This document shows positions 4,700 through 46,402 of a stretch of DNA of 64,000 nt, piece after piece. Positions within the stretch are counted from its first letter, which is position 1. Each line of letters begins with the position of its first letter. The notes beneath the pieces were generated by a model. It was not told where the DNA came from. It saw only the letters and a list, made by a program, of their open reading frames with translations, and made no database searches. The stretch comes from an uncultured virus (IMG/VR IMGVR_UViG_3300025921_000010) (taxonomy: Duplodnaviria > Heunggongvirae > Uroviricota > Caudoviricetes > Crassvirales): the IMG/VR virus record IMGVR_UViG_3300025921_000010, one strand, 5' to 3'. A program made the position numbers and the translations under genes.

Positions 4700-4994
4700 G
4701 TTGGGCGCAATTAAGTGTCCAACAGTTCCATTAGTGCTTCGTTGACAGATTCTCGGTATGCTTGCATTATCTCATTTCTACCCCAGCCAGTTTTTGCTTG
4801 TAGTTTCTCAGCAAATATTTCTTCAATTCGTTTTAAAATTTTTTTATTCATAACAAATTTAAACTGCGCCCAACATTTCATTGGCTTAATCGGGGCTGAA
4901 CGATATGTGCTCAACGGAAGTACTTCTATTTAGCATTAGTGCAAGGCTCGGCGGACGTACTTCGATTTCCCCGCCTGCGCCAATGAGTTGACTA
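4700..4994 (+). mobile_element. satellite attC-like cassette containing a small minus-strand ORF
   Basis: GTTGGGCGCA 4700-4709 is complementary to TGCGCCCAAC 4865-4874; ~130 bp hairpin 4865-4994 resembles the array sites. Confidence 0.75.
4711..4851 (-). CDS. small hypothetical protein (cassette ORF)
   Basis: likely ATG at 4851 (MNKKILKRIEE...); the ORF track extends it to 4914. Confidence 0.6.
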   Translation of the reverse strand: MNKKILKRIEEIFAEKLQAKTGWGRNEIMQAYRESVNEALMELLDT

Positions 4995-5005
4995 TTGGGC
5001 GAAAG

Positions 5006-22878: not shown

Positions 22879-23190
22879 GGGTTACTTTTCCGGCGTTTCG
22901 GATAAGTGATTAATTAAACCGTTTATTTGGTCAGCATTTTGCCTAAATACTTCCAACTTCTTTTGATGTAATTGTAAGTCAGTTATTAAAGCGGAAAGTA
23001 ATTCAGGGGTTACAATAAATCTGGATTCATTAAAATTTGTTTCCGAAATAAAATCACTCTTACCGAGTTTATATTTTTTCCCGTCCAAAGAAGATTGGAG
23101 TTGAAATGTTTTTTCATTTTCTTTTTGGGTAAAGTAAGGGTTTGATCTTACAGAAATAACTTGCTTCATTTTGTTTTTATTTATGAGTGA

Positions 23191-23997
23191 TTAAACTTCT
23201 TTTTTCTGTGGTTGTGAATCCTTAAATTCTTGATAAAGGCCTACCGTTGTAAAATGCCCTTTCCCTGGAACATACCATTTTCTAAATTTTGCATGGTATC
23301 TAAACCAGCTATCTTTATTCATGTAGCCACTAATCCATTCCGCAAAAGCAATAGCATCACTAACACCTACATTATCTTTCCTTTCATACATCAGTTCTTT
23401 TATACGTTCAGTATATTTAATAATTGCTTCTTCATTTTCCCAAAGCATATACCCAGACGGTTTTTTATTCAATGATTCTTTTGTCTCTTTGGATGCAATT
23501 AATCTATAGGTAGGTAACATTGCTTTTTCTATTGTCGTAAAAGGGATATGCAATGACACTATAAGATTTTTGAATAATTTTATCGGGATGCTATTTGTAT
23601 AGCATTCGTCATTTATTAATTGAATTAATGAGCCTTGTAACCCCAATTCTTTATCAATAGTTTCAGGATTTAATTCGTGTAACTCAATAGCTTGTTTTAG
23701 AATTTGACCAACAGTTATAACTGCGTCTTTCCTTTCATTTACGATAGAGGCGTATTCACATGAACATTCCAAATCAATTTTTTTGCATTTATTACAAAAT
23801 TTATTACCATACTCATCAGTAGAATAACCATTTTCTGCACTTACATCACTTACTTTGTTTTGAAGGGCGGCTTTATTCAATAAATGATTTATGCCGTTTA
23901 CAATACTTCCTTTGATGCTGTCTCTTGTATTGCCCGGGATAGATTTTATAATCTTATCTGCTAATTTGTCAATTTCTTGTTCTGTTATTTTACTCAT
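23191..23997 (-). CDS. mosaic hypothetical protein
   Basis: 268 aa; CxxC motif; internal 13-bp direct repeat. Confidence 0.6.
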   Translation of the reverse strand: MSKITEQEIDKLADKIIKSIPGNTRDSIKGSIVNGINHLLNKAALQNKVSDVSAENGYSTDEYGNKFCNKCKKIDLECSCEYASIVNERKDAVITVGQILKQAIELHELNPETIDKELGLQGSLIQLINDECYTNSIPIKLFKNLIVSLHIPFTTIEKAMLPTYRLIASKETKESLNKKPSGYMLWENEEAIIKYTERIKELMYERKDNVGVSDAIAFAEWISGYMNKDSWFRYHAKFRKWYVPGKGHFTTVGLYQEFKDSQPQKKEV

Positions 23998-24008
23998 TGG
24001 TTTTTATT

Positions 24009-24996
24009 TTAAGGGTTTTTATAATTTAAATTTTCATTCCACAGGTAATATTTTTTCATCCCTAAATAACTTCCATTTTTAAATTGTGGAATTTCTTTTT
24101 TACAAATTAACCCACGAGAGGCAAACCAAAAACAGATAGTAAATTCATCATTCTTTTCATCCGTTGGCGCAAACCATTCGTCTTGCGGAAAAGTTTCTAA
24201 TACCGATAAATAATGGTCGTTCGTTTCATGGTCTAAAAACCCGTGTCTTTGTAATATTGATTTTATCATTTTAAAGTTTTATTGGTTTAGTAATAAAATT
24301 TCTTTATCTATTCCAGGCGTGAAAAATGCCGGATAAAATCTTACCTTATATTTATCCGTTTGTTTATGGCCCGGCCATTTACCGCCCGTTTGCTCCATAA
24401 ATTTTTTAAGGATTTCTTTGCCGAGCTCCATTTGTTGTTCTTCAGGAACTTCTTTTGTTTTTCCCATTTTATATAGTGCGTAACATCTTGCTTTTATTGT
24501 TGACATATTTTTTAATTTAATTCAGGTTTAAAAATTTCTTCTTCGATTTCACATATTTTACTTTCTGCTATTAATCTTATTTCCCACTCTTTTTCTTCAA
24601 TAATTCTTTCGTTATTTTTCTTCAATAATTCTTTCATTCTATTTACACATAATTCCCTATGCTTTACGTTTTCTTCAAAACTTAAACATCTTTCGAAAGG
24701 AGGCAATATAAACTCCTCTTCATCCAACAGGTGGCCTCTTATGTATAATTCTAATCTCAAAAGGGTAGTGCTTCGGTGAATAATTTTATTTTACAGGGCC
24801 TTGCAAATTTTCTTAGTTGCTTGACACTTTTCTTACTACTTCCGTAGAGTAAAATTGATTTACTCCCATTATTATAAACCTCTTTTACTTCTTTTTCATT
24901 AAACCAAAACTTCCCAGAGTGCCAGAAAAGACCTTCTATATTCGTGAAGTAATACCCGTTTATTTCAACGGCCTTTAATCTAAATTTTCGGTTCAT
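24009..24996 (-). other. cluster of four small hypothetical CDSs (24009-24269, 24279-24506, 24512-24760, 24757-24996)
   Basis: tightly packed co-oriented ORFs. Confidence 0.6.
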
Positions 24997-25050
24997 TTTT
25001 AATTAGTTGTTTAGAAGTTAGACGGCAGCAATACAAACGTTGTAGGCAAC

Positions 25051-25626
25051 CTACGCAACGCTCTGTAATAGTTCAGGGTTTAAGAATCGGTTTCCAATTA
25101 TCTTTTTTGATTTTACTGCTGAACCGCCAAACTGAACAGAATAACAAGCGTGGCTCTTATCGTCAATTCTTTTTAAGTGGAAGCTGCTATCACATCCATA
25201 ATCGCATATTAGTCTGATGATTGGCTTCTGTTTATCTTCGCCGAACGGATTAAACCCATTTAAAGGGTGGTCTCTAATCATTTCTTCGTGATATTCAATT
25301 TCTACAATATCATCTTCATATAATTCAATGCCATTGTATTTTTGATTAGAGAATTGGCATTTTGCAACTATTGAATATCCTGTGAGCCTTTCACATTGTG
25401 TTTTACATTCGCCATTGAATATTTGCGAGTAATCAAACACGATTGAACACATTCTTCCTGTTTCTTCATGTTGGAAAATATATTTGAATTTAATTTCACG
25501 GCTCTGAAACAGGCTGCCTACAACATTCGTATTTGCGTTAGGCTGGCTGACCTGCTGATTTTGAGCAGTTGAATTGCTATCAGCTTCGGTTTCGGCTGAA
25601 AGTTCGTTGATGTTACTATTATTCAT
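25051..25626 (-). CDS. YopX-family protein with attC-encoded leader (cassette 1)
   Basis: REIKFK, ELYEDDIV, IIGNRFLNPELL. Confidence 0.8.
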   Translation of the reverse strand: MNNSNINELSAETEADSNSTAQNQQVSQPNANTNVVGSLFQSREIKFKYIFQHEETGRMCSIVFDYSQIFNGECKTQCERLTGYSIVAKCQFSNQKYNGIELYEDDIVEIEYHEEMIRDHPLNGFNPFGEDKQKPIIRLICDYGCDSSFHLKRIDDKSHACYSVQFGGSAVKSKKIIGNRFLNPELLQSVA

Positions 25627-25707
25627 ATTTTGAAGTTTTGTTTTTTAATTTAGCTGACGTTCGGGCGAAAAGTTCTTTTATCCAGCCCAAACGCAAATAC
25701 GTGGTCG
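25515..25707 (+). repeat. attC-like site 1 (long class)
   Basis: TGCCTACAAC ... CGTATTTGCGTT/AACGCAAATACG ... C-GTT. Confidence 0.85.
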
Positions 25708-25719
25708 TTAGCAGTAACC

Positions 25720-26031
25720 TTATGCGACAATGTACAAATCATCCATAGTTCGCAAACCTTCAGCACCATCGTATTCTTCAACTTGAAATGCCGTGCCAAT
25801 AGGTAGCCAATGAATTCGCAAATCAGAAGCACCCCCACAATAAACATCTTCAATTCCTAAATTTTCTTTTATCCAATCTTCATCAATTTGGTCAGCTTTT
25901 CCTTTCTCTACCATTTCGACAATTTTAGGGCTAAATAATAATTGCTCATTGCTATTCCAAGAATACCAACCTGCACCAAACCCGTGTGAGATAAGCACGG
26001 CAACTTTTCCATCTCTAATTACTTTTTCCAT
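25720..26031 (-). CDS. conserved phage hypothetical protein (cassette 2)
   Basis: GKVAVLISHGFGAGWYSW, EEYDGAE. Confidence 0.75.
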   Translation of the reverse strand: MEKVIRDGKVAVLISHGFGAGWYSWNSNEQLLFSPKIVEMVEKGKADQIDEDWIKENLGIEDVYCGGASDLRIHWLPIGTAFQVEEYDGAEGLRTMDDLYIVA

Positions 26032-26069
26032 TTTTATATTTGTTTTTTTTACGCTGACCGAAAAAAGGC

Positions 26070-26198
26070 TACTGCTAACATTGCATTGCCAAAATTGGGG
26101 CAGACGTGGTTAATTTAAACTTTTGTACTACTATTAAACTTCATTGCTAAATTGAACATTTGGTTTTCAAAATCCCCAACTTCGGCAATGCTTCAACG
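26070..26198 (+). repeat. attC-like site 2 (129 bp)
   Basis: TACTGCTAAC complements GTTAGCAGTA at 25707; arms GCATTGCCAAAATTGGGG / CCCCAACTTCGGCAATGC. Confidence 0.88.
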
Positions 26199-26210
26199 TT
26201 ATAGGGGCAT

Positions 26211-26432
26211 TTAAAGAGCCTGCGTAACCATATCGGATTTATTTTTAACTATTTCATACTTCCCGTTAAAGGGGTAGAAATTTTCACCTTTATCACCATA
26301 ACCTATAGCCTTCATTATCCCATCAGTTCCCATAATAAAATCTGCGGCATCACCACCAACCCATAGTTGAGACTGAAATCTTTTAGTTCCATCTTTTAAA
26401 GTTCCGATATGTAGTAATTTAATTTTGTTCAT
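26211..26432 (-). CDS. hypothetical protein (cassette 3)
   Basis: likely start MNKIKLL at 26432. Confidence 0.65.
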   Translation of the reverse strand: MNKIKLLHIGTLKDGTKRFQSQLWVGGDAADFIMGTDGIMKAIGYGDKGENFYPFNGKYEIVKNKSDMVTQAL

Positions 26433-26448
26433 CGTGTTGTAAATAAAC

Positions 26449-26577
26449 GCCCTATAACATTGCATTGCAGCAAGTGGGGCAGACGGAAGTTAATAATCTG
26501 TTGTTCGTTGTTCAGCTTTAGTTCTTGTGCTGGGCAGACGGAGCGCTGAATATCCCACCTGCTGCAATGCTTCAACG
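26449..26577 (+). repeat. attC-like site 3 (129 bp; interior identical to site 11)
   Basis: CCCTATAAC complements GTTATAGGG at 26198. Confidence 0.88.
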
Positions 26578-26587
26578 TTATCGGCGA

Positions 26588-26962
26588 TTAGACACGAGCT
26601 TCGTCATTAATCGGAGCCGCATCTTCATAAAAACCACCATTAAGAACGTGTATATATTGCGCTTCTGAAAGGCAATCAAAAGACAACCTTGCACCACCTT
26701 TTAAATGTATTTTAGATGTTTCAAAATTTATTAGTTCGATTTGAGAATATGAGCAGCCAGTATCAATTTCTGTTTCATAAAATATCTTTTTCCATTGATT
26801 TTTAGTTGGCCGGTATTTTCTACTTTTAGAAGGTTGTACCATCACAAAACCGCCGATAACATGCCGTTTTGCACAAGCAGGGCTGACGTGCGAATTATCA
26901 GCAGCAGAATCATTATTCGGCTTCTGTTCCGGCTTGACGTTCTCTATTTTGCTTAAAATCAT
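26588..26962 (-). CDS. hypothetical protein with attC-encoded leader (cassette 4)
   Basis: start codon lies inside site 4. Confidence 0.65.
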   Translation of the reverse strand: MILSKIENVKPEQKPNNDSAADNSHVSPACAKRHVIGGFVMVQPSKSRKYRPTKNQWKKIFYETEIDTGCSYSQIELINFETSKIHLKGGARLSFDCLSEAQYIHVLNGGFYEDAAPINDEARV

Positions 26963-27044
26963 AATCTCAACTATTTGTTTATTTACTGTACTTTAGTTCA
27001 GGCAGAAGTTTTTCAATTGCCCTGCCATCGGCAATACCTGGCCG
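26851..27044 (+). repeat. attC-like site 4 (long class, partly mismatched arms)
   Basis: CGCCGATAAC complements GTTATCGGCG at 26577. Confidence 0.82.
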
Positions 27045-27061
27045 TTATCGGAAAGGGGAAG

Positions 27062-27340
27062 CTATTCCGCAGCTTCATAAGTCTTTTCAAAAATATCTGG
27101 CTTGCAAGGGTAGAACTCACAGTTTATACCTTTGATAATCCAATCATTAACTTTACCTATCATTATCCCTTCAAGTGTTTTTATTTGAAGATATGCGCCA
27201 GTGGGATTATCTTCTGACGGTTCAAGAACAGGACTTTCTATTATTAAATCATTTGAGAACTGTTTTATCTCATGTCCGTTGTGACCTGTGTATTGAATAG
27301 CTTCAATAACAACTGGCTTTTTTTTGAATTTCTGTATCAT
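27062..27340 (-). CDS. conserved phage protein (cassette 5)
   Basis: KFKKKPVVIEAIQY...IKTLEG...EFYPCKPDIFEKTYE; likely start 27340. Confidence 0.8.
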   Translation of the reverse strand: MIQKFKKKPVVIEAIQYTGHNGHEIKQFSNDLIIESPVLEPSEDNPTGAYLQIKTLEGIMIGKVNDWIIKGINCEFYPCKPDIFEKTYEAAE

Positions 27341-27377
27341 ATTTTTTGTTTTTAAAGTTTCTAAAATTTTGCCGCCC

Positions 27378-27505
27378 TTCCGATAACAGCCCGTTTTGCG
27401 CAAGCAGGGCAGACCTGCTAAAATCAACTTCATCTCGCTATTTTGCTTTCGTGCTTTGCTGGGCAGAAGTACTTTTAATTCCTGCCGTGCGCAAAGCGGA
27501 AAACG
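27378..27505 (+). repeat. attC-like site 5 (128 bp)
   Basis: TTCCGATAAC complements GTTATCGGAA at 27044. Confidence 0.86.
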
Positions 27506-27512
27506 TTGCACG

Positions 27513-27959
27513 CTACCTATTCGATAGGGTTGACAAATATTCTTGCTCTGTTGCAGGGAGCCATCCAGAATATGAATAACTGCAATTTTGTAATGGTGAA
27601 ATATAACTATCAGCGCAAAAAATATGTGCTGAATCATCGCGCCATTCACCATTTCCAGCACTAAAATGCTTTTTCACTTTTAGGTAAACATCTGGCAATG
27701 GATTGTCGGCACCATCTACCATGTCTGTTTGCTTTACATACGCTGGCATATCTTCTACTTTCCTTTTTTCCCACCACCCCAGTTCTTTAAACAGATGTGG
27801 GAAGTCAGATATTTTCCAAACAATACCTTCGCTTTCATCTTCATCATTAACATACCTACACCAATCTCTATCCAAAATTGAACCTACTTCATAGTTTCTG
27901 TTATTAGGGAAAGCGGCAATTACTTCCCACCTTTTTTTTAATAATTCTTCGTTTGACAT
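27513..27959 (-). CDS. hypothetical protein (cassette 6)
   Basis: likely start MSNEELLKK at 27959. Confidence 0.7.
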   Translation of the reverse strand: MSNEELLKKRWEVIAAFPNNRNYEVGSILDRDWCRYVNDEDESEGIVWKISDFPHLFKELGWWEKRKVEDMPAYVKQTDMVDGADNPLPDVYLKVKKHFSAGNGEWRDDSAHIFCADSYISPLQNCSYSYSGWLPATEQEYLSTLSNR

Positions 27960-28002
27960 TTTGTGTTTATTTAAAAGTTTATAATTCAAAGTCTGAAATT
28001 GC

Positions 28003-28131
28003 AGCGTGCAACAATCGGTTTTCTGATACGGGGGCTGACGAATAAATTCTGAACATTTTTTCCTATATTCATCAGTAGTGCTTTCATCGGCTGACGTTCC
28101 CTGATTCCCCGCATCAGAAAGCCTCCGGACG
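28003..28131 (+). repeat. attC-like site 6 (129 bp)
   Basis: AGCGTGCAAC complements GTTGCACGCT at 27505. Confidence 0.88.
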
Positions 28132-28398
28132 TTAGGCGCCATTTGACGACCAGATAATGCCTGATACTTTCCATGCAGTTTTAGCACTCAACCGCCAACT
28201 GTATAACCATTGCCAAGCAGTAGGTTTATCAATCCCTTCATAGTAGTTGCTTGTACCCCATAACTTAAAAAAGCAGATTAAACGGCGTATAACAAGGGGT
28301 TTGGCAATACTTGGGCAGACGGAATAAACCTCATCATTTGTAGTGCTATTAGGCTTTTGTTCCGGCTTGACATTAACTATTGAGCTATGTGCTTTCAT
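28132..28398 (-). CDS. hypothetical protein with attC-encoded leader (cassette 7)
   Basis: stop TAA overlaps the GTTA core; start lies inside site 7. Confidence 0.6.
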   Translation of the reverse strand: MKAHSSIVNVKPEQKPNSTTNDEVYSVCPSIAKPLVIRRLICFFKLWGTSNYYEGIDKPTAWQWLYSWRLSAKTAWKVSGIIWSSNGA

Positions 28399-28477
28399 TC
28401 AACTTTGGTTTTTTAATTTTACATTTGTTACGGCCTGACGAGCCTTGATTTCCCAAGCATCGCCAAGCCCCGATACG
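28284..28477 (+). repeat. attC-like site 7 (long class)
   Basis: GGCGTATAAC vs GTTAGGCGCC at 28131 (8/10 complementary). Confidence 0.83.
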
Positions 28478-28484
28478 TTGCCCG

Positions 28485-28913
28485 CTATTCAGTGACAGAC
28501 AGCACACGTCCAAGCGATATAATGAATATTCGACAACCTTCGTAATCCTGGAAAGAGCCAAACCATTTAGGGTTGACATCGCACAAATCAGCAAGACGAA
28601 TGCCTTTACATTCAACATCCATCTTTGGAGCGCCTTTAGCATAACCATTTTTAAAACGGACAATATCAAAGTCCTTACAGGTTTGCGAATGCCAGTAACC
28701 CTTTTTTACAAATCTATCTTTCCAGTACATTTTATCCTGCCTGTACTCTTCTTTCTTTTCGCCAGATTTAATCATATCAAACCATTTCTTAGTCAGCGTA
28801 AGATGAAGAACAGCGGGCAACATGCCGTTTTGCACAAGGCTGGCAGAAGTGCAGGATTCAGCAGCAGTTCGTTTATCTGCTTTTGTTCCGGCTTTTAGTT
28901 CATTATTTTGCAT
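28485..28913 (-). CDS. ASCH/PUA-like domain protein (cassette 8)
   Basis: LHLTLTKKWFDMIKSGEKKEEYR, VRFKNGY. Confidence 0.82.
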   Translation of the reverse strand: MQNNELKAGTKADKRTAAESCTSASLVQNGMLPAVLHLTLTKKWFDMIKSGEKKEEYRQDKMYWKDRFVKKGYWHSQTCKDFDIVRFKNGYAKGAPKMDVECKGIRLADLCDVNPKWFGSFQDYEGCRIFIISLGRVLSVTE

Positions 28914-29006
28914 TAGAATATATTTTTAAAGTTTTTATTCGTTTACTGTGCAGACGTTCCGGCGAAACGTTCTTTTAATCCAGCCCTGCGCAAAGCGGGC
29001 TGACCG
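28812..29006 (+). repeat. attC-like site 8 (long class)
   Basis: AGCGGGCAAC complements GTTGCCCGCT at 28477. Confidence 0.85.
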
Positions 29007-29018
29007 TTATAGGAAATT

Positions 29019-29279
29019 TTATTTTTTCCCACGCTCGGCAATGTGGTTAATAGCCATTTTAGCAACTTCTTCCATTTTATCTTTTGCTTCTTTTTCGGTG
29101 TCCCAACCTGTAAAATTTTCATTTATATCAAATGATAGCATTAGTTTGTGAATATCTCCATCACGCAAAAGATACATTAGTGATGTCCATTTACTTGTTT
29201 CTTTGTGTTGAACTGCCGTTATCAAAATGTCTCCATTTGGGTAGTTACTTGCAATTTCTAAAGCTGTTATTAAGTTCAT
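29019..29279 (-). CDS. hypothetical protein (cassette 9)
   Basis: likely start MNLITALE at 29279. Confidence 0.65.
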   Translation of the reverse strand: MNLITALEIASNYPNGDILITAVQHKETSKWTSLMYLLRDGDIHKLMLSFDINENFTGWDTEKEAKDKMEEVAKMAINHIAERGKK

Positions 29280-29317
29280 ATTTTCGTTATTAAAGCCAAC
29301 CCACAAAAAATAAAACT

Positions 29318-29409
29318 ATCCTATAACAAGCGGTTGGCAATATGCCACAGGATAGTGCGTGTATTGAAATTTAGTCCGTTGAAGTGGCACATCGCCAACC
29401 GCCTCAACG
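29318..29409 (+). repeat. attC-like site 9 (92 bp)
   Basis: TCCTATAAC complements GTTATAGGA at 29006; arms GCGGTTGGCAATATGCCAC / GTGGCACATCGCCAACCGC. Confidence 0.88.
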
Positions 29410-29637
29410 TTATCGGAAATATTTAACCCTTTTATTTGAGCAATCTTCACTACAAACAGGGTCACAGTTTTCTAAATCTATTTGAGACAGTCCTGTATCT
29501 TTGCCACATACAACGCAGATTGCACTTCCGATAACAAGTGCATTGGCGGCTACTTGGGCAGGCGGAATAACATCAGCTTCCGGTACTTTAATCGGCTCCC
29601 GTTCGGGCTTACCTACTCCAATCAACTTTAGATTCAT
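29410..29637 (-). CDS. small Cys-rich (zinc-ribbon-like) protein, about half encoded by the attC (cassette 10)
   Basis: CVVC...CSEDC; stop lies in the core site. Confidence 0.6.
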   Translation of the reverse strand: MNLKLIGVGKPEREPIKVPEADVIPPAQVAANALVIGSAICVVCGKDTGLSQIDLENCDPVCSEDCSNKRVKYFR

Positions 29638-29719
29638 AATATTTAGTTTTTGTTTGTTTACTGTACTTTTGTTCCGGCGAAATGTTCTCTATTTCCCAAG
29701 CATCGCCAATGCCTGGACG
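29526..29719 (+). repeat. attC-like site 10 (long class)
   Basis: TTCCGATAAC complements GTTATCGGAA at 29409. Confidence 0.84.
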
Positions 29720-29731
29720 TAAGGCGCAAGG

Positions 29732-29980
29732 CTACGACACAACAAGTGCTGCGACCTTTTCTTTTAGTTTATTGTATTCTGACCGATAAATCTCTTTTGA
29801 CTTTTCATAAGCATTCAAAAGATGATTGTAAGTCGCAAACTTTATTTCATCTTCTAATGACATATCCGAGCCATCGTTACCTTCGTTTGTACAAGGATAT
29901 TTCGCATCAAAATATTCCCTGTAAACATCAAGTGTTGGAATGAGTGCTTGTGCTTCCAACTCAATAAAAATTTTACTCAT
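29732..29980 (-). CDS. hypothetical protein (cassette 11)
   Basis: 82 aa ORF between GTAAGGCGCA and TGCGCCTTAC. Confidence 0.68.
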   Translation of the reverse strand: MSKIFIELEAQALIPTLDVYREYFDAKYPCTNEGNDGSDMSLEDEIKFATYNHLLNAYEKSKEIYRSEYNKLKEKVAALVVS

Positions 29981-30004
29981 AATTTATTTTAATTTGCCCG
30001 ACCC

Positions 30005-30133
30005 TGCGCCTTACATTGCATTGCAGCAAGTGGGGCAGACGGAAGTTAATAATCTGTTGTTCGTTGTTCAGCTTTAGTTCTTGTGCTGGGCAGACGGAGC
30101 GCTGAATATCCCACCTGCTGCAATGCTTCAACG
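30005..30133 (+). repeat. attC-like site 11 (129 bp)
   Basis: TGCGCCTTAC complements GTAAGGCGCA at 29719; 30013-30137 is identical to 26457-26581. Confidence 0.88.
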
Positions 30134-31117
30134 TTATGGGCAAGCTACCAGTCGTCTCCGTTCGGGATTGTATTCGTAATCCGACCAACTACAACTTTTG
30201 AATGTTGCCCTATGATTTACCCACCGCGTAAATGCTTTTTGGTAGCCATCGTCTCTTTTGTAAGGCATGACAAACGGCATTGCTCCCATTTCTCTAAGTG
30301 TCATTACCCGCTCCATGTCCTGATCAGGCGTTGTATCAAATCCAATCAGTACAAAAAACTGCATGTGTTTCGTTGGTATGCCAGCCTTTACGCAGCGTTC
30401 AATTCCAGATTTAACAATCTTGCCGTCTTTATATTTATCCCAGGCAAACGTTAGATACTTCTGATTGAACTTTGAATTTTGAAAATTACATTTTGCCAAT
30501 AGTTCTGCCTGTTCATCAGTTATAATTCGAATATTCAGCCCTTGCACAAAGCAAACTTTCAATTTCAATTCAATTATCCTTTCAAGGTTCACTTTCCAAT
30601 CGGTGCCGCCAAAGAAGTCGTTATCTAAAAGCATTAATCTATTGCCACCGTTAGGGTTGATAAGTATTTCATCAATCGTGTTATAATTCTTTGGTCTACC
30701 TTCTTTTTTTGGCACACAACAGAATTTGCAGGCAAAGCGGCAACCCTTCATACTAAACCCTAAATGATAATTGCAGTTAGGATAAAGAGAATAAGAAGGC
30801 GTTGCCCCTTCTATTTCTTCAGGCAAGCGGTTAAAGAAATCAATACCAGTACCACCGATCACAGCGTTTGGCGGCATTTGCGGCATTGGGGTAAAGGCAA
30901 AGATTTTGCTCATGTAAATCTTATCGTAAGTTTCGGCAAACATCAATCCATCGTACCAGCGAACTTCATCACCTAAAGCCTCATGGTAGCCGCAAATTTT
31001 CATTATTGCAAGGTTGGGTATCTTGCCATCCAAAGCAGCTACTCCGATTGCCCGCCTGCCCATAACATTGGTATTGCTGCTATGTGGGCTGACGGAAGTA
31101 ATTGAGCTTTTGTTCAT
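30134..31117 (-). CDS. radical SAM protein with attC-encoded leader (cassette 12)
   Basis: CxxxCxxC motif (GCRFACKFC), PNLAIMK, LLDNDF. Confidence 0.88.
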   Translation of the reverse strand: MNKSSITSVSPHSSNTNVMGRRAIGVAALDGKIPNLAIMKICGYHEALGDEVRWYDGLMFAETYDKIYMSKIFAFTPMPQMPPNAVIGGTGIDFFNRLPEEIEGATPSYSLYPNCNYHLGFSMKGCRFACKFCCVPKKEGRPKNYNTIDEILINPNGGNRLMLLDNDFFGGTDWKVNLERIIELKLKVCFVQGLNIRIITDEQAELLAKCNFQNSKFNQKYLTFAWDKYKDGKIVKSGIERCVKAGIPTKHMQFFVLIGFDTTPDQDMERVMTLREMGAMPFVMPYKRDDGYQKAFTRWVNHRATFKSCSWSDYEYNPERRRLVACP

Positions 31118-31185
31118 TTTATTATCTTTAGTAAGTTATTCGGCTGACGTGCTTCGATTTCCCACACATCAGCAATACCCGTCCG
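31057..31185 (+). repeat. attC-like site 12 (129 bp)
   Basis: TGCCCATAAC complements GTTATGGGCA at 30133. Confidence 0.87.
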
Positions 31186-31461
31186 TTATCTTATTATAAA
31201 TTTTAAAGTGTGTAATATCCTTGCCGCCTCTCTTAATGTCTCGTTCGTAAATCTTAACCCGGTGGCCCGGCACTCTCTTACTAATTCTGTTTTTAGTTCT
31301 TCTGGTAAATCTTCAATCTTTTTCATTCCTTCGTTTAAAAATAACTGGTACCTTCTTAATAGAACTCTTTTAGGGACTGCACTTGTAATCAAAAAATCTA
31401 ACATGCTTTTCTCTCTTTGGTACATTTCAGAAAACCTGGCTGATATTTCTATTTCAATCAT
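31186..31461 (-). CDS. hypothetical protein (backbone; its stop codon forms the array boundary)
   Basis: coupled to the DnaC-like gene. Confidence 0.65.
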   Translation of the reverse strand: MIEIEISARFSEMYQREKSMLDFLITSAVPKRVLLRRYQLFLNEGMKKIEDLPEELKTELVRECRATGLRFTNETLREAARILHTLKFIIR

Positions 31462-32327
31462 CTTCTTAAATCTTTTCCGGTAACATCAATAACATTGAAC
31501 ATTTCTTTCATCCTGCTTCTTACTCTGAATCCGTATTTTTCCTGGATTTGGTCAAAGTTTAAATTTGTAGAAATGATTAGTCTGGAATAATCGTTACTGT
31601 TTAAATAATAAGATTCTAAAAACTCTTTGAACCAGTTAATCTTTGAGCCATAATGATTTATGGTTTCTTCACTTCCAACATCATCCAGATAGATCACTTT
31701 CCCTTTTACCTGGCATCCGCCGTATTCTCTCACTTCCTCCGCCACATCAATCATTGAATGAATAGAAATAGGTTTTATGCGGTTATCTTTTACACAAGTA
31801 AACAGATATGTTTTTCCAAGTCCTGAAATTCCTCTAATCAATAACCCTTTTCCTAAAGAACCTCCAAAGCGTGGATCTTCTGAAAGAAAAAAACAAATAG
31901 CTTTTATAAGAGGTTTATTATATTCGTTTTGAATTAACTTTTTACCCTGCCTTAAACTTCCTTCTGCCATAACTTTAAAAAAATAATATGCATCACATTG
32001 TTTTTTTAATTTTTCATACTCGATACTTTCCTGCTCAGCTTGTCTTTTTAATTCCGATTTTATTTCAATTTCAGCGTGTTTATTTTCATTGGCGGTTCTC
32101 AGGATAGCTTCTGTATTAATTTCTTTTTCCCATTCGACAGATAATACTTTTAATTCGATATTAGCGGCTGATTCCCCTTTGCTCCATAACTTCCAAGCAA
32201 GATGCTTTTTTTTCGCCTCTATTGCGTTCCTAATAGCCTCCTCGCACTCTTTTTCGGTAATGATCATTTCATAATTGGTCAAATTCGATTGTTTCTCCAA
32301 CGGAAGTATGTTTTTTATTAGTTGCAT
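31458..32327 (-). CDS. DnaC/IstB-like AAA+ ATPase (helicase loader)
   Basis: GISGLGKT, IYLDDVG, IISTNL, RVRSRMKEM. Confidence 0.88.
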   Translation of the reverse strand: MQLIKNILPLEKQSNLTNYEMIITEKECEEAIRNAIEAKKKHLAWKLWSKGESAANIELKVLSVEWEKEINTEAILRTANENKHAEIEIKSELKRQAEQESIEYEKLKKQCDAYYFFKVMAEGSLRQGKKLIQNEYNKPLIKAICFFLSEDPRFGGSLGKGLLIRGISGLGKTYLFTCVKDNRIKPISIHSMIDVAEEVREYGGCQVKGKVIYLDDVGSEETINHYGSKINWFKEFLESYYLNSNDYSRLIISTNLNFDQIQEKYGFRVRSRMKEMFNVIDVTGKDLRR

Positions 32328-32997
32328 TTTTTTGCTTTTTAAAATCTTTTTTTATAATCCAGTTTATAAAATGTGAGTACACGGCTTCCTTGTCTGGGTA
32401 ATACCTTTTCCCAGTTAAATTTTGGTTTTTAAAAATATTCCACATGGTTTTTACTTCGTCTTCTTCCAGGTCCACCTGACATGTAATCTTAACCATTTCC
32501 TTTGCTGATTGAATTGTAGTTTTCGGCGCGGCGGCCAAATCTTCCGCGTGGGGCATGGAAGGAAACGTAGAATCTTTTAAAGGAATTTTTACGCAATCAT
32601 TAATAATAATATCATTATCATTTACATTAACAGTAACATTATCATTTACATTATCAGTTATATTTGTTATCGGACTTATAACCACCTTATCATCCGTTAT
32701 AACATCTTGTAACGTGGTTATAGGTTCTTCTCCTTTACCCCATCGTTTTTCCATTCCTTTTATTCCTGAATTAGATAATTTTTTCTTTTTTGTCTCAAAT
32801 TTTTTAAGGTCTCTTTTTAATTGCTGTTTAACCGGCTCAAATACCAAATCAACTACCATATCATCTATTACGGGGTTTTCGTCATTCACATAAGAAAGGA
32901 TAACCATAAACAATTCCCCAGCTTTTTCTCTTGGCATCTTTTTTACGGTGTGTATTAAATCTGCGTACAAGATGAACGAATTTTTATTTTCAGCCAT
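32269..32997 (-). CDS. replication initiator (DUF6291-like N-terminus)
   Basis: KNSFILYAD...AGELF; DNVNDNV low-complexity tract; precedes the loader gene. Confidence 0.75.
   Translation of the reverse strand: MAENKNSFILYADLIHTVKKMPREKAGELFMVILSYVNDENPVIDDMVVDLVFEPVKQQLKRDLKKFETKKKKLSNSGIKGMEKRWGKGEEPITTLQDVITDDKVVISPITNITDNVNDNVTVNVNDNDIIINDCVKIPLKDSTFPSMPHAEDLAAAPKTTIQSAKEMVKITCQVDLEEDEVKTMWNIFKNQNLTGKRYYPDKEAVYSHFINWIIKKDFKKQKNATNKKHTSVGETIEFDQL
32610..32725. repeat. iteron-like repeats, putative replication origin
   Basis: repeated CATTATCATTTACATTA and GTTAT/TTATAAC inside the initiator gene, as in lambdoid O genes. Confidence 0.5.
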
Positions 32998-33046
32998 AAA
33001 TCAGTGTTTTTATTTCTCTTTTAAATCAGTAGTTCCTTTGGGGTAT

Positions 33047-33871
33047 TTAAAACAAAACCGGTGCTATTTTTGAAATTTTTGTTTTCGCAAATCCGAGTTC
33101 TTTAATCTCCTCCCTCATTAATTTTTCCTCCGATAGCCAGTTATTGGCCTTTGTAAAAAAATCCTTCTTAATTTCAAAGCCATACGCTTTTCTGTTTAAT
33201 CTTTCGGCAGCGATTAAAGTAGAACCGCTACCGGCAACCGGATCAATAACTACATCTCCAGGATCTGTAAATATTCCTATCAATGTTTTTAAAAGTTCCA
33301 CAGGTTTTTGAGTTGGGTGTATTTTTTCACTATCATTATCGCGTGGCCAATCCATGCAATTAAAAATCATTTTACCATCATTCCTGAATTTTGGGAGCCG
33401 CTCACGGTAAAGAACTAAACCATATTCACAGTTGCCTACAATTTTCATATTCGCCTTTAATACTTGAGCAGAAAAATTCTTTCTGAAAACGAGATTTATA
33501 TAATTGTTCAAACCGTATCTTTTAGCGAGTTCAATTAAATACATTTGTTGATCAAAGGCGCAAAAAATAATCATACATGGCGCATCGCCTTTCTGTCTTG
33601 CCTCACCTTCTACTTTTACTTTTTTAGTTTCAGATTTTAGCATGGTGCTGCAGAAGTGCATAAATTCTGCAGGTCTAAAATCTTCATCAGTATCAAAAAA
33701 ATTCTTTCCAGCTAATTCACTTTCTCCGTTTTTATTATCGCCGTCCTTGTACCACGCAGGATTTGAAGCGTAAGCCTTATCGGAAAGGTTATACGGTATG
33801 TCCGCTATTATAAGTTGCGCTCTCGGTATTGCATATTTTTTGAAATTTTGAAAGTGGTCTCTGTATATCAT
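33047..33871 (-). CDS. N6-adenine/N4-cytosine DNA methyltransferase (beta class)
   Basis: IADIPY, HPTQKP, VIDPVAGSGST. Confidence 0.92.
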   Translation of the reverse strand: MIYRDHFQNFKKYAIPRAQLIIADIPYNLSDKAYASNPAWYKDGDNKNGESELAGKNFFDTDEDFRPAEFMHFCSTMLKSETKKVKVEGEARQKGDAPCMIIFCAFDQQMYLIELAKRYGLNNYINLVFRKNFSAQVLKANMKIVGNCEYGLVLYRERLPKFRNDGKMIFNCMDWPRDNDSEKIHPTQKPVELLKTLIGIFTDPGDVVIDPVAGSGSTLIAAERLNRKAYGFEIKKDFFTKANNWLSEEKLMREEIKELGFAKTKISKIAPVLF

Positions 33872-34119
33872 AATTTTCACGCTGCGTACCAATCTTTCAT
33901 GGCATCGATGTTAAAAATACTTTTATCTTCTACCTGTGTTACTTTTTTATTCCTGTTGTGCGGATATTTTGCCAGTCCCTCTTCTCTTTTAAATTTCTGG
34001 ACATGAAATCTCCCCGTACCGATTATATTGGCAATCTCCGGCTCTGTTAATTTCAGGTAGTTCATTCGGATGAAGTTCTTTTGATGATCGTTTAATTCTA
34101 TTCGCATTTGTTTATATAA

Positions 34120-35128: not shown

Positions 35129-35291
35129 TCCGCTTCATTTAGTTTTTCCAGCAAATCTTTTATTGCTTCTATTTCTGTTTCGCCGTGACCGATTATAGAA
35201 TCTTCGTCTAATGTTTCATCCCATGCGCTCCAATCAAAAGTTCTAATCGGAATAGGCGGGTAATCGTAACTTGTTTTAATTGTCATTGTAT

Positions 35292-38579: not shown

Positions 38580-38582
38580 GAT

Positions 38583-41257: not shown

Positions 41258-41507
41258 CAAAAGTTCAAACAAAAGTTCAAACAAAATGGCCCAAAAAACA
41301 CGCAAAAATGAAGAAAATAAAAAATCGTGATATTGATTATCAATAAGTTAGATAAATAAAATGCACTACCTGCAGCTTCCCAAGCTGTAGGTAGCGGGTT
41401 CGAGTCCCGTCTTCCGCTCTTTTTAAACTCAATACCAGCAAGGATTTTAGGAAAATAAAAGAAATTAAAAAATGAAAAAAATATCAAACTCAAACAAAAG
41501 TTCAAAC
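41258..41507 (+). other. attP with a tRNA-Gly(CCC) 3'-half core (about 41372-41419)
   Basis: GCAGC-TTCCCAA-GCTGT anticodon arm, GGTTCGAGTCC T-arm, no 5' half; CAAAAGTTCAAAC arm repeats on both sides; IHF-like TATCAATAAGTTA 41338-41350. Confidence 0.85.
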
Positions 41508-42665
41508 GAAAAACTTCCTAATAATTGTTCAATTGACGGTTTTAAAATCGCTCCTGCGGATCTTTCAATGGATAAAAAGTGGTTTGTTTATTATACTTTT
41601 TATGATCCGGAATATCCAAACGGTTTTCGCCGGCAAATCAGAGGTGGGATAAATCGTTTTAAGAACTTTAAGGTTCGCAAAGAAGCGGCAGAGGAATTAA
41701 TGAAGCACGAAATGGCTGAATTAACGGAAGGGTTCAATCCATTTAAGAGAAAACTTATTGTGCCTGCTGACGCGGATGTAATCCCCGACACTCCTTTTAT
41801 TCAGGCGTTGCAAATTGCCTTTAAGAAAATTAAAGGTGTAAAAGGTACTCTGGTAGATATTCAAAGTGTCATCAAAGGGACTGCTGAGGCGGCCGAAAAA
41901 TTAGGAATTGATCAATTGCCGGTTAAAAATGTCTCACGGAAATATTTTAAAATGATTTTTAAACAATGTAAACAGGATAACCCGAAGTTTTCAGATAACC
42001 GGCAAAACGTTTACCGTAAATGGCTCAAAAAACTTTACGATGAATTAATAGAAATGGAGGCGGTAGAGGTGAATCCTTTAGTCTTTATCCGGAAAGAAAA
42101 AATAGTAAAGAAAAAAAGAGTGATGCCCACCGATGAACAAAGGGAGCAAATCAGTAAATACTTAAAAGAGAACTTTTATAATTTTTGGAGGGCAATACAA
42201 ATATTTTTTGCTTCCGGTTCCCGGGAAACTGAATTAATGAACGTGAAAATAAAAGATATTGATCTGAAAAATCAGCAATGCAAATACTTGGTCTTAAAAG
42301 GCAAAGAGGCGCACGAAGTAACCAGGCCAATAAGTGACGCTGTTTTGTACTTGTGGGAAGAATTGAAAGGCGAAGATGAAGATTATTTATTTTCGTATGA
42401 CCTGACACCAGGAGCGAATAAATTAAGTACCGAAGCATTATCTAAACGCTGGAAACGGCACGTAAAAAAAGAATTAGGAATAAATGTTGATCTGTATGCT
42501 CTCAAATATCTGAATACTACCGAAATAATGGAAATTCTGGATGATACCAAAGAAGCGATGAAATTAACGGCCCATACAACAGAGGCGATGATCGTAAAAA
42601 TTTACGACACGAAAAACAAACAAAGAAAAGATGATAAGATAAAAAAAGTGGGAAGTACTTTTTAA
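41472..42665 (+). CDS. int: tyrosine integrase
   Basis: SGSRETE, VLKGK, LYALKY, TAHTT, KIYD; adjacent to attP. Confidence 0.88.
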   Translation: MKKISNSNKSSNEKLPNNCSIDGFKIAPADLSMDKKWFVYYTFYDPEYPNGFRRQIRGGINRFKNFKVRKEAAEELMKHEMAELTEGFNPFKRKLIVPADADVIPDTPFIQALQIAFKKIKGVKGTLVDIQSVIKGTAEAAEKLGIDQLPVKNVSRKYFKMIFKQCKQDNPKFSDNRQNVYRKWLKKLYDELIEMEAVEVNPLVFIRKEKIVKKKRVMPTDEQREQISKYLKENFYNFWRAIQIFFASGSRETELMNVKIKDIDLKNQQCKYLVLKGKEAHEVTRPISDAVLYLWEELKGEDEDYLFSYDLTPGANKLSTEALSKRWKRHVKKELGINVDLYALKYLNTTEIMEILDDTKEAMKLTAHTTEAMIVKIYDTKNKQRKDDKIKKVGSTF

Positions 42666-45343: not shown

Positions 45344-46402
45344 TTAAAATAATAATTTCAATTCTTGTTTTACTTCCTGCGGTAATGAGATAGTTACCGG
45401 CATATCAATATTAAAGAAGTCGTGGTTTGCTATCTTAATTGCTGATTGCATTGAATTAGACCTGATATACCGATAAAAGGATGTTGTTGTTTTGTGGCCT
45501 GTTATCATCATTATATCCCTTTCTGATAATCCCGATAAATGCGCATTAGTCGCAAATGTTCTCCTGGCTGTGTGGCTGCTCATTAAATCACATTTTGGAA
45601 TTAGTGTGTCTATTCGCTTTCCTCCTTCAGTTCTTGTAAAGACTATTTTTTCAGTTATTCCGGCGCGTCTGGCAATTTCTTTTATCGCTTCGTTGTAGTA
45701 CTGGTAAGAGAAGATCTCCCCGAAGTTCCACTGGTAACGCTCACAAACCTGTTTAACTGTTCGTGAAATGGGGATGAAAACTATTTCACCTGTCTTTTGT
45801 GTTTTGATCTCAAAATAAAGTTTGCCGCCCATTTCTCTGAGGTAGTTTTTAGGTTCTGCAAGTATTAAAGCCAAATCGCTGTACCTAAGTCCTAAAAAGC
45901 AATGTAAGACGTAAATATCCCTCACTCTGTCATAGCCTGGTGTGTCTGCAAAGTCAGCTTCTAACAAGATTTTAATTTCTTCAATGGTGTTAAATACTGC
46001 TGTGGTTTCTTCCGTTGCTGCGCGGATGCCTGAACCATCAAAGTTAGTTTTCCCTTCATTTTTTAACCGGCGCAATACTGCTTTTATGCGTTGTAAAGTT
46101 CCCGCAATAGTGTTTTTAGAATACTCTTTATCCATCATCCAAATATTAAAATCTGTCGCCCATTTGATGCTAATATCTTCTAAGAATATCGTTTCAGTTT
46201 CTTGCTCAAACAGTTTTAAGATTTTAATATCTGTGGCGTAATTTTTAGACGTATTAGGGCTGTATTTGTTCCCATCCGGTGTAAGTACCTTGCCGCCCTC
46301 TATTTGTTCCTTAATAGCTTTAAATAGCGGTACAAATTCGGTTCCCTGTTTAACTGTCGGTTGAACGGTTGGAATGTTTGCGGTACTGGTTGAGTAAAAC
46401 AT
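45344..46402 (-). CDS. second tyrosine recombinase (Bacteroidota type)
   Basis: LGLRYSD, KTQKT, SSHTARRTFAT, TGHKT, FYRYI. Confidence 0.92.
   Translation of the reverse strand: MFYSTSTANIPTVQPTVKQGTEFVPLFKAIKEQIEGGKVLTPDGNKYSPNTSKNYATDIKILKLFEQETETIFLEDISIKWATDFNIWMMDKEYSKNTIAGTLQRIKAVLRRLKNEGKTNFDGSGIRAATEETTAVFNTIEEIKILLEADFADTPGYDRVRDIYVLHCFLGLRYSDLALILAEPKNYLREMGGKLYFEIKTQKTGEIVFIPISRTVKQVCERYQWNFGEIFSYQYYNEAIKEIARRAGITEKIVFTRTEGGKRIDTLIPKCDLMSSHTARRTFATNAHLSGLSERDIMMITGHKTTTSFYRYIRSNSMQSAIKIANHDFFNIDMPVTISLPQEVKQELKLLF

What the first reader, a model, noticed from the sequence alone, without database searches (positions are those of the whole stretch)
25051..31117. All cassette ORFs are inverted relative to attC polarity
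Seen: on the + strand the sites read AAC-A...C-GTT like classical attC top strands. Arm mismatches in sites 2, 3 and 9 are A.C on + but G.T wobbles on -, as expected if - is the folded bottom strand (site 6 is mixed). Yet all 12 ORFs are on -, with stop codons 1-18 nt from the GTT core; TAA overlaps the core at 28132, 29410 and 30134. Known: classical cassettes carry the ORF on the top strand upstream of attC. Inference: a distinct inverted cassette class expressed from the phage leftward operon rather than from a Pc promoter.
Basis: partly seen in the sequence, partly recalled or inferred. Interest (0 to 1): 0.8.

Follow-up and report, generated by a model that had tools for sequence, protein, structure and literature searches.

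The report
Phage gene cassettes built backwards
This phage carries a row of twelve swappable small genes bounded by folding DNA sites like those of bacterial integrons, but each gene faces the opposite way to the genes at the same kind of site in bacteria, so the site lies in front of its gene, not behind it.

Summary
A covariance model finds 12 sites at 25516-31193, plus a 13th at 4866-5002, all on +. All 12 ORFs lie on -, with stops 1-18 nt from the GTT core.

- Two related phages share exactly GTT-gene-AAC-site-GTT, with unrelated DNA on both sides.
- In viral contigs with a 294-aa Xer-like recombinase, arrays start about 40 nt from its start codon. Homology breaks at GATG|TT there, and ORFs are antisense to the sites.
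- In Bacteroidota genomes the same model finds the same sites with ORFs sense, 17 of 17 intervals.

These are not classical attC sites. The extra unpaired bases lie on the arm opposite to the classical one, and the linked recombinase lacks the IntI insertion. The window has neither recombinase nor docking site, so its array is an orphan.

Expression from the leftward operon is inferred only.

Earlier notes of this scan describe the same reversed design in other phages. My four literature searches found no description of it.

The parts
25039..31193 (+). Orphan array of 12 cassettes. Site polarity is +, genes are on -. It runs from the bare GTT junction at 25039 to the last site.
25020..25041 (+). 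Half site at the left end of the array: a right-arm-like box, a spacer and GTT, with no left arm. It is followed by cassette 1.
   Evidence: read; shares a 9-nt box with the right arm of site 12
25516..25715 (+). Site 1, long class (200 nt). It holds the ATG at 25626 of the ORF to its left.
   Evidence: (49.4 bits)
26071..26206 (+). Site 2, 120-nt class.
   Evidence: 121.1 bits
26450..26585 (+). Site 3, 120-nt class. 129 nt of it are 99% identical to site 11.
   Evidence: 101.2 bits
26852..27052 (+). Site 4, long class, holds the ATG at 26962.
   Evidence: (42.7 bits)
27379..27513 (+). Site 5, 120-nt class. A soil-metagenome contig shares this site alone, bounded by both cores.
   Evidence: 99.2 bits; X5 record 21
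28004..28139 (+). Site 6, 120-nt class.
   Evidence: 110.4 bits
28285..28485 (+). Site 7, long class, holds the ATG at 28398.
   Evidence: (70.8 bits)
28813..29014 (+). Site 8, long class, holds the ATG at 28913.
   Evidence: (52.9 bits)
29319..29417 (+). Site 9, short (83 nt core to core).
   Evidence: 44.1 bits
29527..29727 (+). Site 10, long class, holds the ATG at 29637. Its right core is GTA instead of GTT.
   Evidence: (50.4 bits)
30006..30141 (+). Site 11, 120-nt class, a twin of site 3. Its left core is TAC.
   Evidence: 93.7 bits
31058..31193 (+). Site 12, the last site. It abuts the stop codon of backbone gene 31186-31461.
   Evidence: (120.2 bits)
25051..25626 (-). Cassette ORF 1, 191 aa, weakly YopX-like (phrog_98). 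It has no ATG between the core and the matched part.
25720..26031 (-). Cassette ORF 2, 103 aa, no family match.
26211..26465 (-). Cassette ORF 3, 84 aa as listed, no family match.
26588..26962 (-). Cassette ORF 4, 124 aa counted from the ATG inside site 4.
27062..27340 (-). Cassette ORF 5, 92 aa, phrog_419.
27513..27959 (-). Cassette ORF 6, 148 aa, no family match.
28132..28398 (-). Cassette ORF 7, 88 aa. Its only ATG lies inside site 7.
28485..28913 (-). Cassette ORF 8, 142 aa. phrog_625 matches residues 35-137.
29019..29279 (-). Cassette ORF 9, 86 aa.
29410..29637 (-). Cassette ORF 10, 75 aa with a Cys-rich tail. Its only ATG lies inside site 10.
29732..29980 (-). Cassette ORF 11, 82 aa. A soil-metagenome contig keeps it joined to site 11 but puts a different site on its left.
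   Evidence: X5 record 23
30134..31117 (-). Cassette ORF 12, a radical-SAM protein (phrog_9298, E 2e-68). The same gene is the left-most cassette in L007, L008 and L009.
4866..5002 (+). A 13th site, inside the rightward structural gene block, between two - strand ORFs (4711-4881 and 5006-5254).
   Evidence: 108.5 bits
31186..31461 (-). Backbone gene at the right edge of the array. It is conserved in L002 and L003, which have no array.
45344..46402 (-). Tyrosine recombinase of the phage. It is not the array's recombinase.
41472..42665 (+). Second tyrosine recombinase, of the phage-integrase type. It is not the array's recombinase.

Best explanation
What it is. The region is a recombinase-less ('orphan') array of 12 cassettes. 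It belongs to an integron-like gene-capture system of Bacteroidota and their phages. The recombinase of that system is a short Xer-like tyrosine recombinase without the insertion that marks integron integrases.

The sites. They are imperfect palindromes of about 120 or 200 nt with fixed polarity:
- left core AAC, a 2-4 nt spacer, a 15-19 bp stem, a loop with GGCWGAC repeats, the stem again, a 5-7 nt spacer, right core GTT;
- conserved A.C mismatches on +, which are G.T wobbles on -.

The crossover. It lies at the right-hand G|TT. A mobile unit therefore reads, on +: TT, cargo, AAC, site, G.

Bacterial and phage versions. In bacterial platforms the cargo gene is sense, so the gene is followed by its site as in an integron. 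In the phage version, this window included, the gene is antisense. Each gene then carries its site in front of it, ends at or near the unit's first bases (TAA overlapping the core), and points toward the docking site.

Shown: site polarity, gene orientation, unit borders in relatives, position of the docking site.

Inferred:
- The - strand is the one that folds and is cut.
- Transcription comes from the leftward operon.
- The long sites supply the start codon and an N-terminal extension.
- A recombinase from a host or a co-infecting phage moves the window's cassettes in trans.
For: Polarity and orientation in the window.
- 13 of 13 strong model matches are on + and all cassette ORFs are on -.

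Mobile unit.
- L008 against L009 share exactly GTT-gene-AAC-site-GTT.
- Soil-metagenome contig X5 record 23 keeps cassette 29719-30013 joined to site 11 on its right, with 3 differences in 344 nt. On its left it has a site 6-like site instead of site 10. The joint is at 28123 to 29718.
- In L007, L008 and L009 the left-most cassette starts at a bare GTT with no site.

Platform.
- L064 has a 294-aa recombinase: PF00589 119 bits, PF13495 36 bits. Its best NCBIfam match is XerA (198.6 bits). It scores 133.9 against TIGR02249, cut-off 265, in two stretches. Against the solved IntI4 structure only the C-terminal stretch aligns, offset by 43 residues.
- Its relatives lie next to arrays in L129, L130, L131, L132, L136/L137 and L139. 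32 of 34 model matches are upstream of the start codon, and all 34 are on the opposite strand.
- Homology among L129, L130 and L131 stops right after GATGTTA.

Bacterial calibration.
- In 16 of 80 loci there are 33 matches, all on the recombinase strand and all downstream of it.
- ORFs are sense in 17 of 17 inter-site intervals and 16 of 16 recombinase-to-first-site intervals.
- Homology among L188, L190 and L192, and between L155 and L189, breaks at GTT. The first cassette's start is complementary to the left core of the first site.

Viral contigs.
- ORFs are antisense in 28 of 30 intervals and in 15 of 15 plus 5 of 5.

Folding.
- The - strand is more stable in 18 of 23 sites, by a mean 1.86 kcal/mol.
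Against: - By the classical rule, extrahelical bases sit on the arm opposite the cleaved AAC of the bottom strand (Nivina 2016, passages). Here the extra bases are on the 3' arm of + in 12 of 12 window sites (by hand) and 30 of 30 bacterial sites. That rule would make + the bottom strand.
- The window has no cognate recombinase or docking site. Unit borders were therefore shown only in relatives.
- Between the window and L007 the radical-SAM gene is 81.6% identical, but the sites in front of it are only 58% identical.
- Sites 3 and 11 are twins with unrelated cargo. Sites can therefore be exchanged apart from genes.
- ORF 5006-5254 beside the 13th site has no site in front of it.
- The conserved A.C mismatches on + could themselves be the mark of the folded strand.
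- 'Phage' and 'bacterial' rest on the labels of the collections.
- Expression was not measured.
Confidence: 0.75

Rival explanations
1. An ordinary cassette array lacking an integrase (CALIN) in canonical orientation. The - strand is the top strand, each gene is followed by its own attC, and nothing is inverted.
For: - The extra unpaired bases lie on the 5' arm of -, as in classical top strands (rule from Nivina 2016).
- Gene-then-site is the default in integrons.
- At the 13th site the right-most ORF (5006-5254) has a site behind it and none in front.
Against: - Unit borders in L008/L009 and in contig X5 record 23 put the site in front of the gene.
- Arrays start at a bare GTT on the stop-codon side in L007, L008 and L009.
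- The docking site and recombinase lie on that same side.
- Bacterial arrays with the same spacer asymmetry (30 of 30) carry genes on the other strand.
Confidence: 0.1
2. The sites are real recombination sites but functionally two-sided. The recombinase can cut at either core, so 'polarity' is only a sequence habit, and phage and bacterial arrays differ by which core is used.
For: - Sites 3 and 11 are identical from core to core with different cargo on both sides.
- Contig X5 record 21 shares site 5 alone, bounded by both cores.
- IntI can use the top strand at low rates (Nivina 2016).
Against: - In both phage and bacterial platforms the docking site lies on the same side of the model-defined site, to its left.
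- The first junction is a bare GTT in both. One core therefore serves in both kinds of platform.
Confidence: 0.1
3. Not recombination sites at all, but intergenic hairpins such as terminators, RNA-processing signals or REP-like repeats that spread between phage genes.
For: - On - the hairpins would be part of the mRNA in their more stable form.
- A metatranscriptome contig spans site 5 and the neighbouring ORF. That library may hold DNA.
Against: - Each cassette has its own inverted repeats at its ends.
- Exact GTT-to-GTT unit borders.
- Homology breaks at GATG|TT beside a tyrosine recombinase.
- L002 and L003 share the backbone and have no array.
Confidence: 0.05

Closest known systems
Classical integrons (IntI, attI, attC cassettes; class 1, Vibrio chromosomal integrons)
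   Same: - Single-gene cassettes are bounded by imperfect palindromes with AAC...GTT cores.
- The crossover is at G|TT.
- Each cassette has its own complementary ends.
- The docking site lies beside a tyrosine recombinase gene, and new cassettes enter there.
- G.T pairs and lower folding energy fall on one strand, as Nivina 2016 reports for bottom strands.
   Different: - The recombinase lacks the IntI insertion.
- The extra unpaired bases are on the other arm and next to the core, not in the L box.
- Sites are long, with internal GGCWGAC repeats.
- In the phage version the gene is antisense to the site, so the site precedes the gene.
CALINs (attC clusters without integrase) in phages (Qi et al. 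2023, PMC9892861; abstract and section 3.4 read)
   Same: A recombinase-less cassette cluster inside a phage genome. DNA methyltransferases are frequent cargo in the related arrays here too.
   Different: Those sites were called by classical attC tools, and five of six were recombined by IntI1. Most of those arrays were described as co-oriented like bacterial arrays. Divergent site directions were noted in one Polaribacter phage, without further analysis. A systematic inversion and a Xer-like recombinase are not described there.
Treponema-type integrons with intI transcribed toward attI (PMC3607928, passages read)
   Same: [quoted passage not shown]
   Different: Those are true IntI integrons with classical cassettes. 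In the phage arrays here the recombinase points away from the docking site and the cassettes point toward it.
Xer recombinases (XerC/D, archaeal XerA)
   Same: They are the best sequence matches of the array-linked recombinase. The protein is short, with the SAM-like N-terminal domain.
   Different: Xer enzymes resolve chromosome dimers at a single dif site. They are not known, from my recall, to sit beside cassette arrays with folded sites.

Membership tests
Classical integron / attC cassette array | An integron integrase (IntI) with the family-specific insertion in the catalytic domain | tested here: not met
   The window's two recombinases score 24.5 bits and nothing against TIGR02249, cut-off 265. 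The array-linked recombinase of relatives scores 133.9, in two stretches with the middle missing. Only its C-terminal stretch aligns to IntI4, offset by 43 residues.
Classical integron / attC cassette array | Palindromic sites with AAC and GTT cores, and cassette ends that pair with each other | tested here: met
   12 sites; 13 of 15 stem pairs covary; cassette ends match at 10.8 of 13 positions.
Classical integron / attC cassette array | Extrahelical bases on the R''-L'' arm, which is the arm opposite the cleaved AAC of the bottom strand | tested here: not met
   If polarity is set by the crossover side, the extra bases lie on the L'-R' arm in 12 of 12 window sites (by hand) and 30 of 30 bacterial sites. 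The rule is taken from Nivina 2016 passages.
Classical integron / attC cassette array | The cassette gene is on the top strand, upstream of its attC | tested here: not met
   The gene is antisense in 12 of 12 window cassettes. The unit is gene plus the site in front of it.
Classical integron / attC cassette array | Recognition by IntegronFinder's or HattCI's attC models | not testable with these tools
   Rfam holds no match in the window at gathering scores. The attC models themselves are not on hand.
Bacteroidota integron-like system with a Xer-like recombinase (not found in the four literature searches; noted before by this scan) | The site family is recognised by one strand-specific model in phage and bacterial arrays alike | tested here: met
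Bacteroidota integron-like system with a Xer-like recombinase (not found in the four literature searches; noted before by this scan) | A cognate recombinase and docking site at the array's end | tested here: not met
   Absent from the window. Present in relatives. The window's array is an orphan.
Bacteroidota integron-like system with a Xer-like recombinase (not found in the four literature searches; noted before by this scan) | Recombination of the sites by that recombinase | not testable with these tools
   Only comparative footprints are available.

The most novel reading that the evidence does not exclude
Phages and bacteria of Bacteroidota share one recombination chemistry but keep two mirror-image cassette pools. 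A phage-type cassette (site in front of the gene) would be read backwards, and so stay silent, in a bacterial array. A bacterial cassette would be silent in a phage array. Phages would thus have a private, recombinase-driven market of accessory genes. In the phage form the recombination site also serves as the gene's leader: the long sites supply the start codon and an N-terminal extension.
Probability: 0.35. Interest if true: 0.9.

Novelty: new variant of a known kind. Interest (0 to 1): 0.8.

Why it matters
Integron biology rests on one rule: the folded site fixes the direction of insertion so that a promoterless gene faces the platform's promoter. Here the same kind of site, calibrated on bacterial arrays, carries its gene the other way round in phages.

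Three things follow.
- Standard integron finders, which require IntI and classical attC geometry, probably miss these arrays or mis-orient them. I could not test this.
- How cassettes are made is an open question, from my recall. It now has a natural contrast to study, because a gene cannot be flipped relative to its own site by cassette recombination. The two forms must be made separately.
- Phage accessory genes seen in related arrays, such as DNA methyltransferases and a radical-SAM enzyme, appear to be traded as discrete units with exact borders. That makes them easy to mine.

Tried and rejected
- GenBank phages. blastn of the whole array found only a short match to one cassette gene, at 27075-27194, and no related array.
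- The window's own assembly is not held. G001 is the same phage, cut at the site 3 / site 11 repeat, so it adds nothing.
- Rfam gave no match and ARAGORN found no tRNA.
- Pattern scan of viral contigs. Of 113 stretches, 80 loci were fetched. Only 12 of those 80 hold model matches at E <= 0.001; I take the other 68 as chance matches to the pattern.
- All-against-all tblastx of cassette bodies found only two cargo families shared between arrays: the radical-SAM gene, and a methyltransferase too diverged to use.
- Whole-site counts of G.T pairs in minimum-energy folds were noisy (46 on + against 57 on -). I relied on aligned stem positions instead.
- Between the window and L007 the sites do not track the radical-SAM gene.
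tblastn and short blastn gave only chance-level matches.
- G002 is a complete 61-kb relative with a large array. Its only tyrosine recombinase lies about 12 kb from the array.
- RNA. One metatranscriptome contig covers 27373-27742, but that library may hold DNA, so it shows nothing about transcription.
- Parts of the array without contig cover in X2, X3 and X5 are not evidence of absence.
- I did not scan for Bacteroidota-type promoters in the sites.

Full report
Context. The window is a phage genome of 36.6% G+C. It has a terminase (279-2288), a portal (2285-4597) and an endolysin (19801-20385), and then a long block of genes on the - strand from 22882 to 40445. That block includes a DnaC-like loader, a DNA methylase and an Erf-like protein. 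The finding lies inside this leftward block.

The observation. Between consecutive - strand ORFs lie imperfect palindromes that run from an AAC core to a GTT core. A duplex search gave 12 of them, with strikingly regular core-to-core spans: about 120 nt (6 sites), 185-187 nt (5 sites) and 83 nt (1 site). I aligned twelve 120-nt sites, six from the window and six from related viral contigs. The 15-pair main stem has compensatory changes in 13 pairs.

A covariance model built from that alignment finds 13 matches on the + strand of the window, at 42.7-121.1 bits. Seven of them were not used to build it. On - it finds only two weak echoes, at 28.9 and 18.3 bits. The site family therefore has a clear polarity, and all window sites share it.

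All 12 ORFs in 25051-31117 are on -. Their stops lie 1-18 nt from the G of the GTT core. The two ends of each cassette are complementary at a mean 10.8 of 13 positions, against 6.7 of 13 for the two ends of one site. This is the integron pattern.

Which strand is which: evidence within the sites. Here the evidence conflicts.

- The base next to the core is A after AAC and C before GTT on +.
- One stem position is an A.C mismatch on +, so a G.T wobble on -, in 10 of 12 aligned sites. A second is A.C in 5 of 12.
- A third such position sits at base 11 of the cassette-end repeats.
- The - strand folds more stably in 18 of 23 sites, by a mean 1.86 kcal/mol.
- Nivina et al. 2016 (passages read) report the same trends for the bottom strand of classical attC sites: 1.24 against 0.39 G:T pairs, and 2.12 kcal/mol.

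- The same paper places the extrahelical bases on the arm opposite the cleaved AAC of the bottom strand.
- In this family the spacer between core and stem is 2-4 nt on the left arm and 5-7 nt on the right arm in 12 of 12 window sites (aligned by hand).
- That puts the extra bases on the 3' arm of +, so by that rule + would be the bottom strand.

Site anatomy alone therefore cannot settle the question, and I turned to comparative evidence.

The mobile unit. The radical-SAM cassette (30134-31117) recurs in viral contigs L007, L008 and L009. The alignment of L008 with L009 shows four zones:
- The two are unrelated up to GTTATGTGC.
- They are about 93% identical through the gene and its upstream leader.
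- They are about 72% identical through the site, with compensatory stem changes.
- They are unrelated again after ...CGTTAT.

There is no site on the stop-codon side in either contig. The shared unit is GTT, gene (reverse), AAC, site, GTT. The gene travels with the site in front of it, and both borders are GTT cores on +.

A second case comes from a soil-metagenome contig, X5 record 23. It keeps cassette 29719-30013 joined to site 11 on its right, with 3 differences in 344 nt. On its left it has a site 6-like site instead of site 10, with the joint at the G of the core. In L007, L008 and L009 the left-most cassette starts at a bare GTT. In the window the left end is a half site and the right end is a full site that abuts a backbone gene. 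Relatives L002 and L003 share the backbone and have no array.

The platform. The scan's earlier notes gave me the lead to look for a recombinase beside related arrays. L064 has a 294-aa tyrosine recombinase at the array's end:
- It matches PF00589 at 119 bits and the SAM-like N-terminal domain.
- Its best NCBIfam match is XerA at 198.6 bits. It scores 133.9 against the integron-integrase model, cut-off 265, in two stretches with the middle missing.
- Against the solved IntI4 structure only the C-terminal stretch aligns, offset by 43 residues.

Nineteen relatives were fetched from viral contigs. In L129, L130, L131, L132, L136/L137 and L139 the model finds 34 sites, all on the strand opposite the recombinase, and 32 of them lie upstream of its start codon. 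The four loci with no upstream DNA, and the eight distant or fragmentary ones, have none.

Between the start codon and the first cassette lies a conserved stretch of about 40 nt ending in GATG|TT. Homology among L129, L130 and L131, whose recombinases are 91-100% identical, stops right after GATGTTA, and different first cassettes follow. An ORF-length gap of 460-2680 nt always separates the recombinase from the first site. The docking site is thus on the left of the + oriented sites, the crossover is at G|TT, and every gene points toward the recombinase.

Calibration on bacteria. A profile of these recombinases found 80 loci in genome contigs, nearly all labelled Bacteroidota. The same site model finds 33 sites in 16 of them. 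All are on the recombinase's own strand and downstream of it. The longest open frame is sense to the sites in 17 of 17 inter-site intervals and in 16 of 16 recombinase-to-first-site intervals; two of the latter are close calls.

After the recombinase's stop codon, close relatives (L188, L190 and L192; L155 and L189) share about 100 nt and then diverge at GTT. The first cassette's start is complementary to the left core of the first site. The spacer asymmetry is the same as in phages, 30 of 30.

In viral contigs the longest frame is antisense in 28 of 30 intervals, in 15 of 15 plus 5 of 5, and in 10 of 11 in the window. The eleventh window interval is open on both strands, and its - frame matches phrog_625.

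Relative to one and the same site polarity and docking side, bacterial cassettes are gene-then-site and phage cassettes are site-then-gene.

How it likely works. By analogy with integrons and Xer enzymes, a recombinase binds the folded site and cuts at the AAC on the 5' arm of the folded strand. With the crossover at the right-hand GTT of +, that strand is -. This fits its greater stability and its wobbles, but it is an inference. The absence of L-box bulges goes together with the absence of the IntI insertion. That insertion is reported as essential for integron function (Smyshlyaev et al. 2021, passage read). From my recall, it contacts the extrahelical bases.

The window has no cognate recombinase or docking site. 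Any movement of its cassettes would need an enzyme supplied in trans. Soil-metagenome contigs show the same cassettes and sites in other orders, for example a joint from 27045 to 25063 in X2 and the X5 contigs. This suggests turnover among close relatives.

Transcription from the leftward operon is plausible but untested. In the five long sites of the window, an ATG 87-101 nt from the right end opens a frame that runs through the left arm into the cassette. For ORFs 25051, 28132 and 29410 there is no other ATG. Across ten long phage sites this holds in nine. In eight long bacterial sites the corresponding frames are short, at 17-55 aa. The conserved DNA motif is read in different frames in sites 7 and 8 (read), so the peptide itself is not conserved.

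Points that do not fit:
- Sites 3 and 11 are 99% identical over 129 nt but have unrelated cargo.
- The site in front of the radical-SAM gene is only 58% identical between the window and L007, while the gene is 81.6% identical.
- ORF 5006-5254 has no site in front of it.

Sites can evidently be exchanged or homogenised apart from their genes.

Comparison with what is known:
- Cassette clusters without an integrase are known in phages (Qi et al. 2023; abstract and section 3.4 read).
- IntegronFinder 2.0 reports few integrons in Bacteroidetes (passages).
- Treponema integrons have intI pointing toward attI (passages). That is the topology of the bacterial arrays here.
- Four full-text searches found no description of a Xer-like cassette system in Bacteroidota or of systematically inverted phage cassettes. 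I saw only listings for most of the papers returned, and no supplements.
- This scan's own earlier notes describe the same reversed design in other phage genomes. They are unchecked AI notes, and I tested their main claims here on independent DNA.

Verdict. They are the phage-type, mirror-image cassettes of a distinct integron-like system.

Noticed in passing
window 4575-5254: A 13th site (4866-5002, 108.5 bits) lies with two - strand ORFs (4711-4881 and 5006-5254) inside the rightward structural block, just after the portal gene. A right-arm-only half site overlaps the end of the portal gene, and a collapsed mini-site lies at about 4680-4702. The right-hand core of the full site reads TAT or is displaced.
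   Followed up: partly
window 25626, 26962, 28398, 28913, 29637 (inside sites 1, 4, 7, 8, 10): All five long sites hold an ATG with an A/T-rich leader. Its frame stays open through the left arm into the cassette. Nine of ten long phage sites do this, and none of eight long bacterial sites does so comparably. The shared DNA motif is read in different frames in sites 7 and 8, so the peptide is not conserved.
   Followed up: partly
window 26457-26585 and 30013-30141: Sites 3 and 11 are 99% identical over 129 nt, exactly from core to core, yet have unrelated genes on both sides. The related record G001 ends at this repeat.
   Followed up: partly
window 25545-31142: GGCWGAC occurs 15 times on + and never on - within the array. 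It falls right after the left stem and again 55-56 nt later, with a third, degenerate copy in the long sites. It looks like an internal repeat unit of 55-65 nt or a protein-binding box.
   Followed up: no
window 25020-25041; L008 (reverse complement) about 7490-7512: Right-arm-only half sites (a GCAATAC-like box, a spacer and GTT) stand where a full site would be expected. They may be decayed sites that fix a former cassette in place; gene 24757-24996 may be such a cassette.
   Followed up: no
window 30134-31117; L007, L008, L009: The radical-SAM cassette (phrog_9298) is the right-most cassette in the window but the left-most in three other phages. Left-most is the position next to the docking side, and so the most recent under integron logic.
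   Followed up: partly
L041, L064, L090, L035 (related viral arrays): DNA methyltransferases (N6_N4_Mtase, N6_Mtase) are frequent cargo or neighbours of these arrays, in line with what Qi et al. 2023 noted for phage cassette clusters.
   Followed up: no
window 24800-31400 against contigs of runs X2, X3, X5: Soil-metagenome contigs hold the same cassettes and sites in other orders, with joints at or near the cores. Some have conserved cassette ends but a replaced interior, for example 25081 to 25474.
   Followed up: partly
window 41472-42665 and 45344-46402: Two tyrosine recombinase genes lie 10-15 kb from the array. Neither is related to the array-linked recombinase family. Their own role, for example lysogeny, was not examined.
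   Followed up: partly
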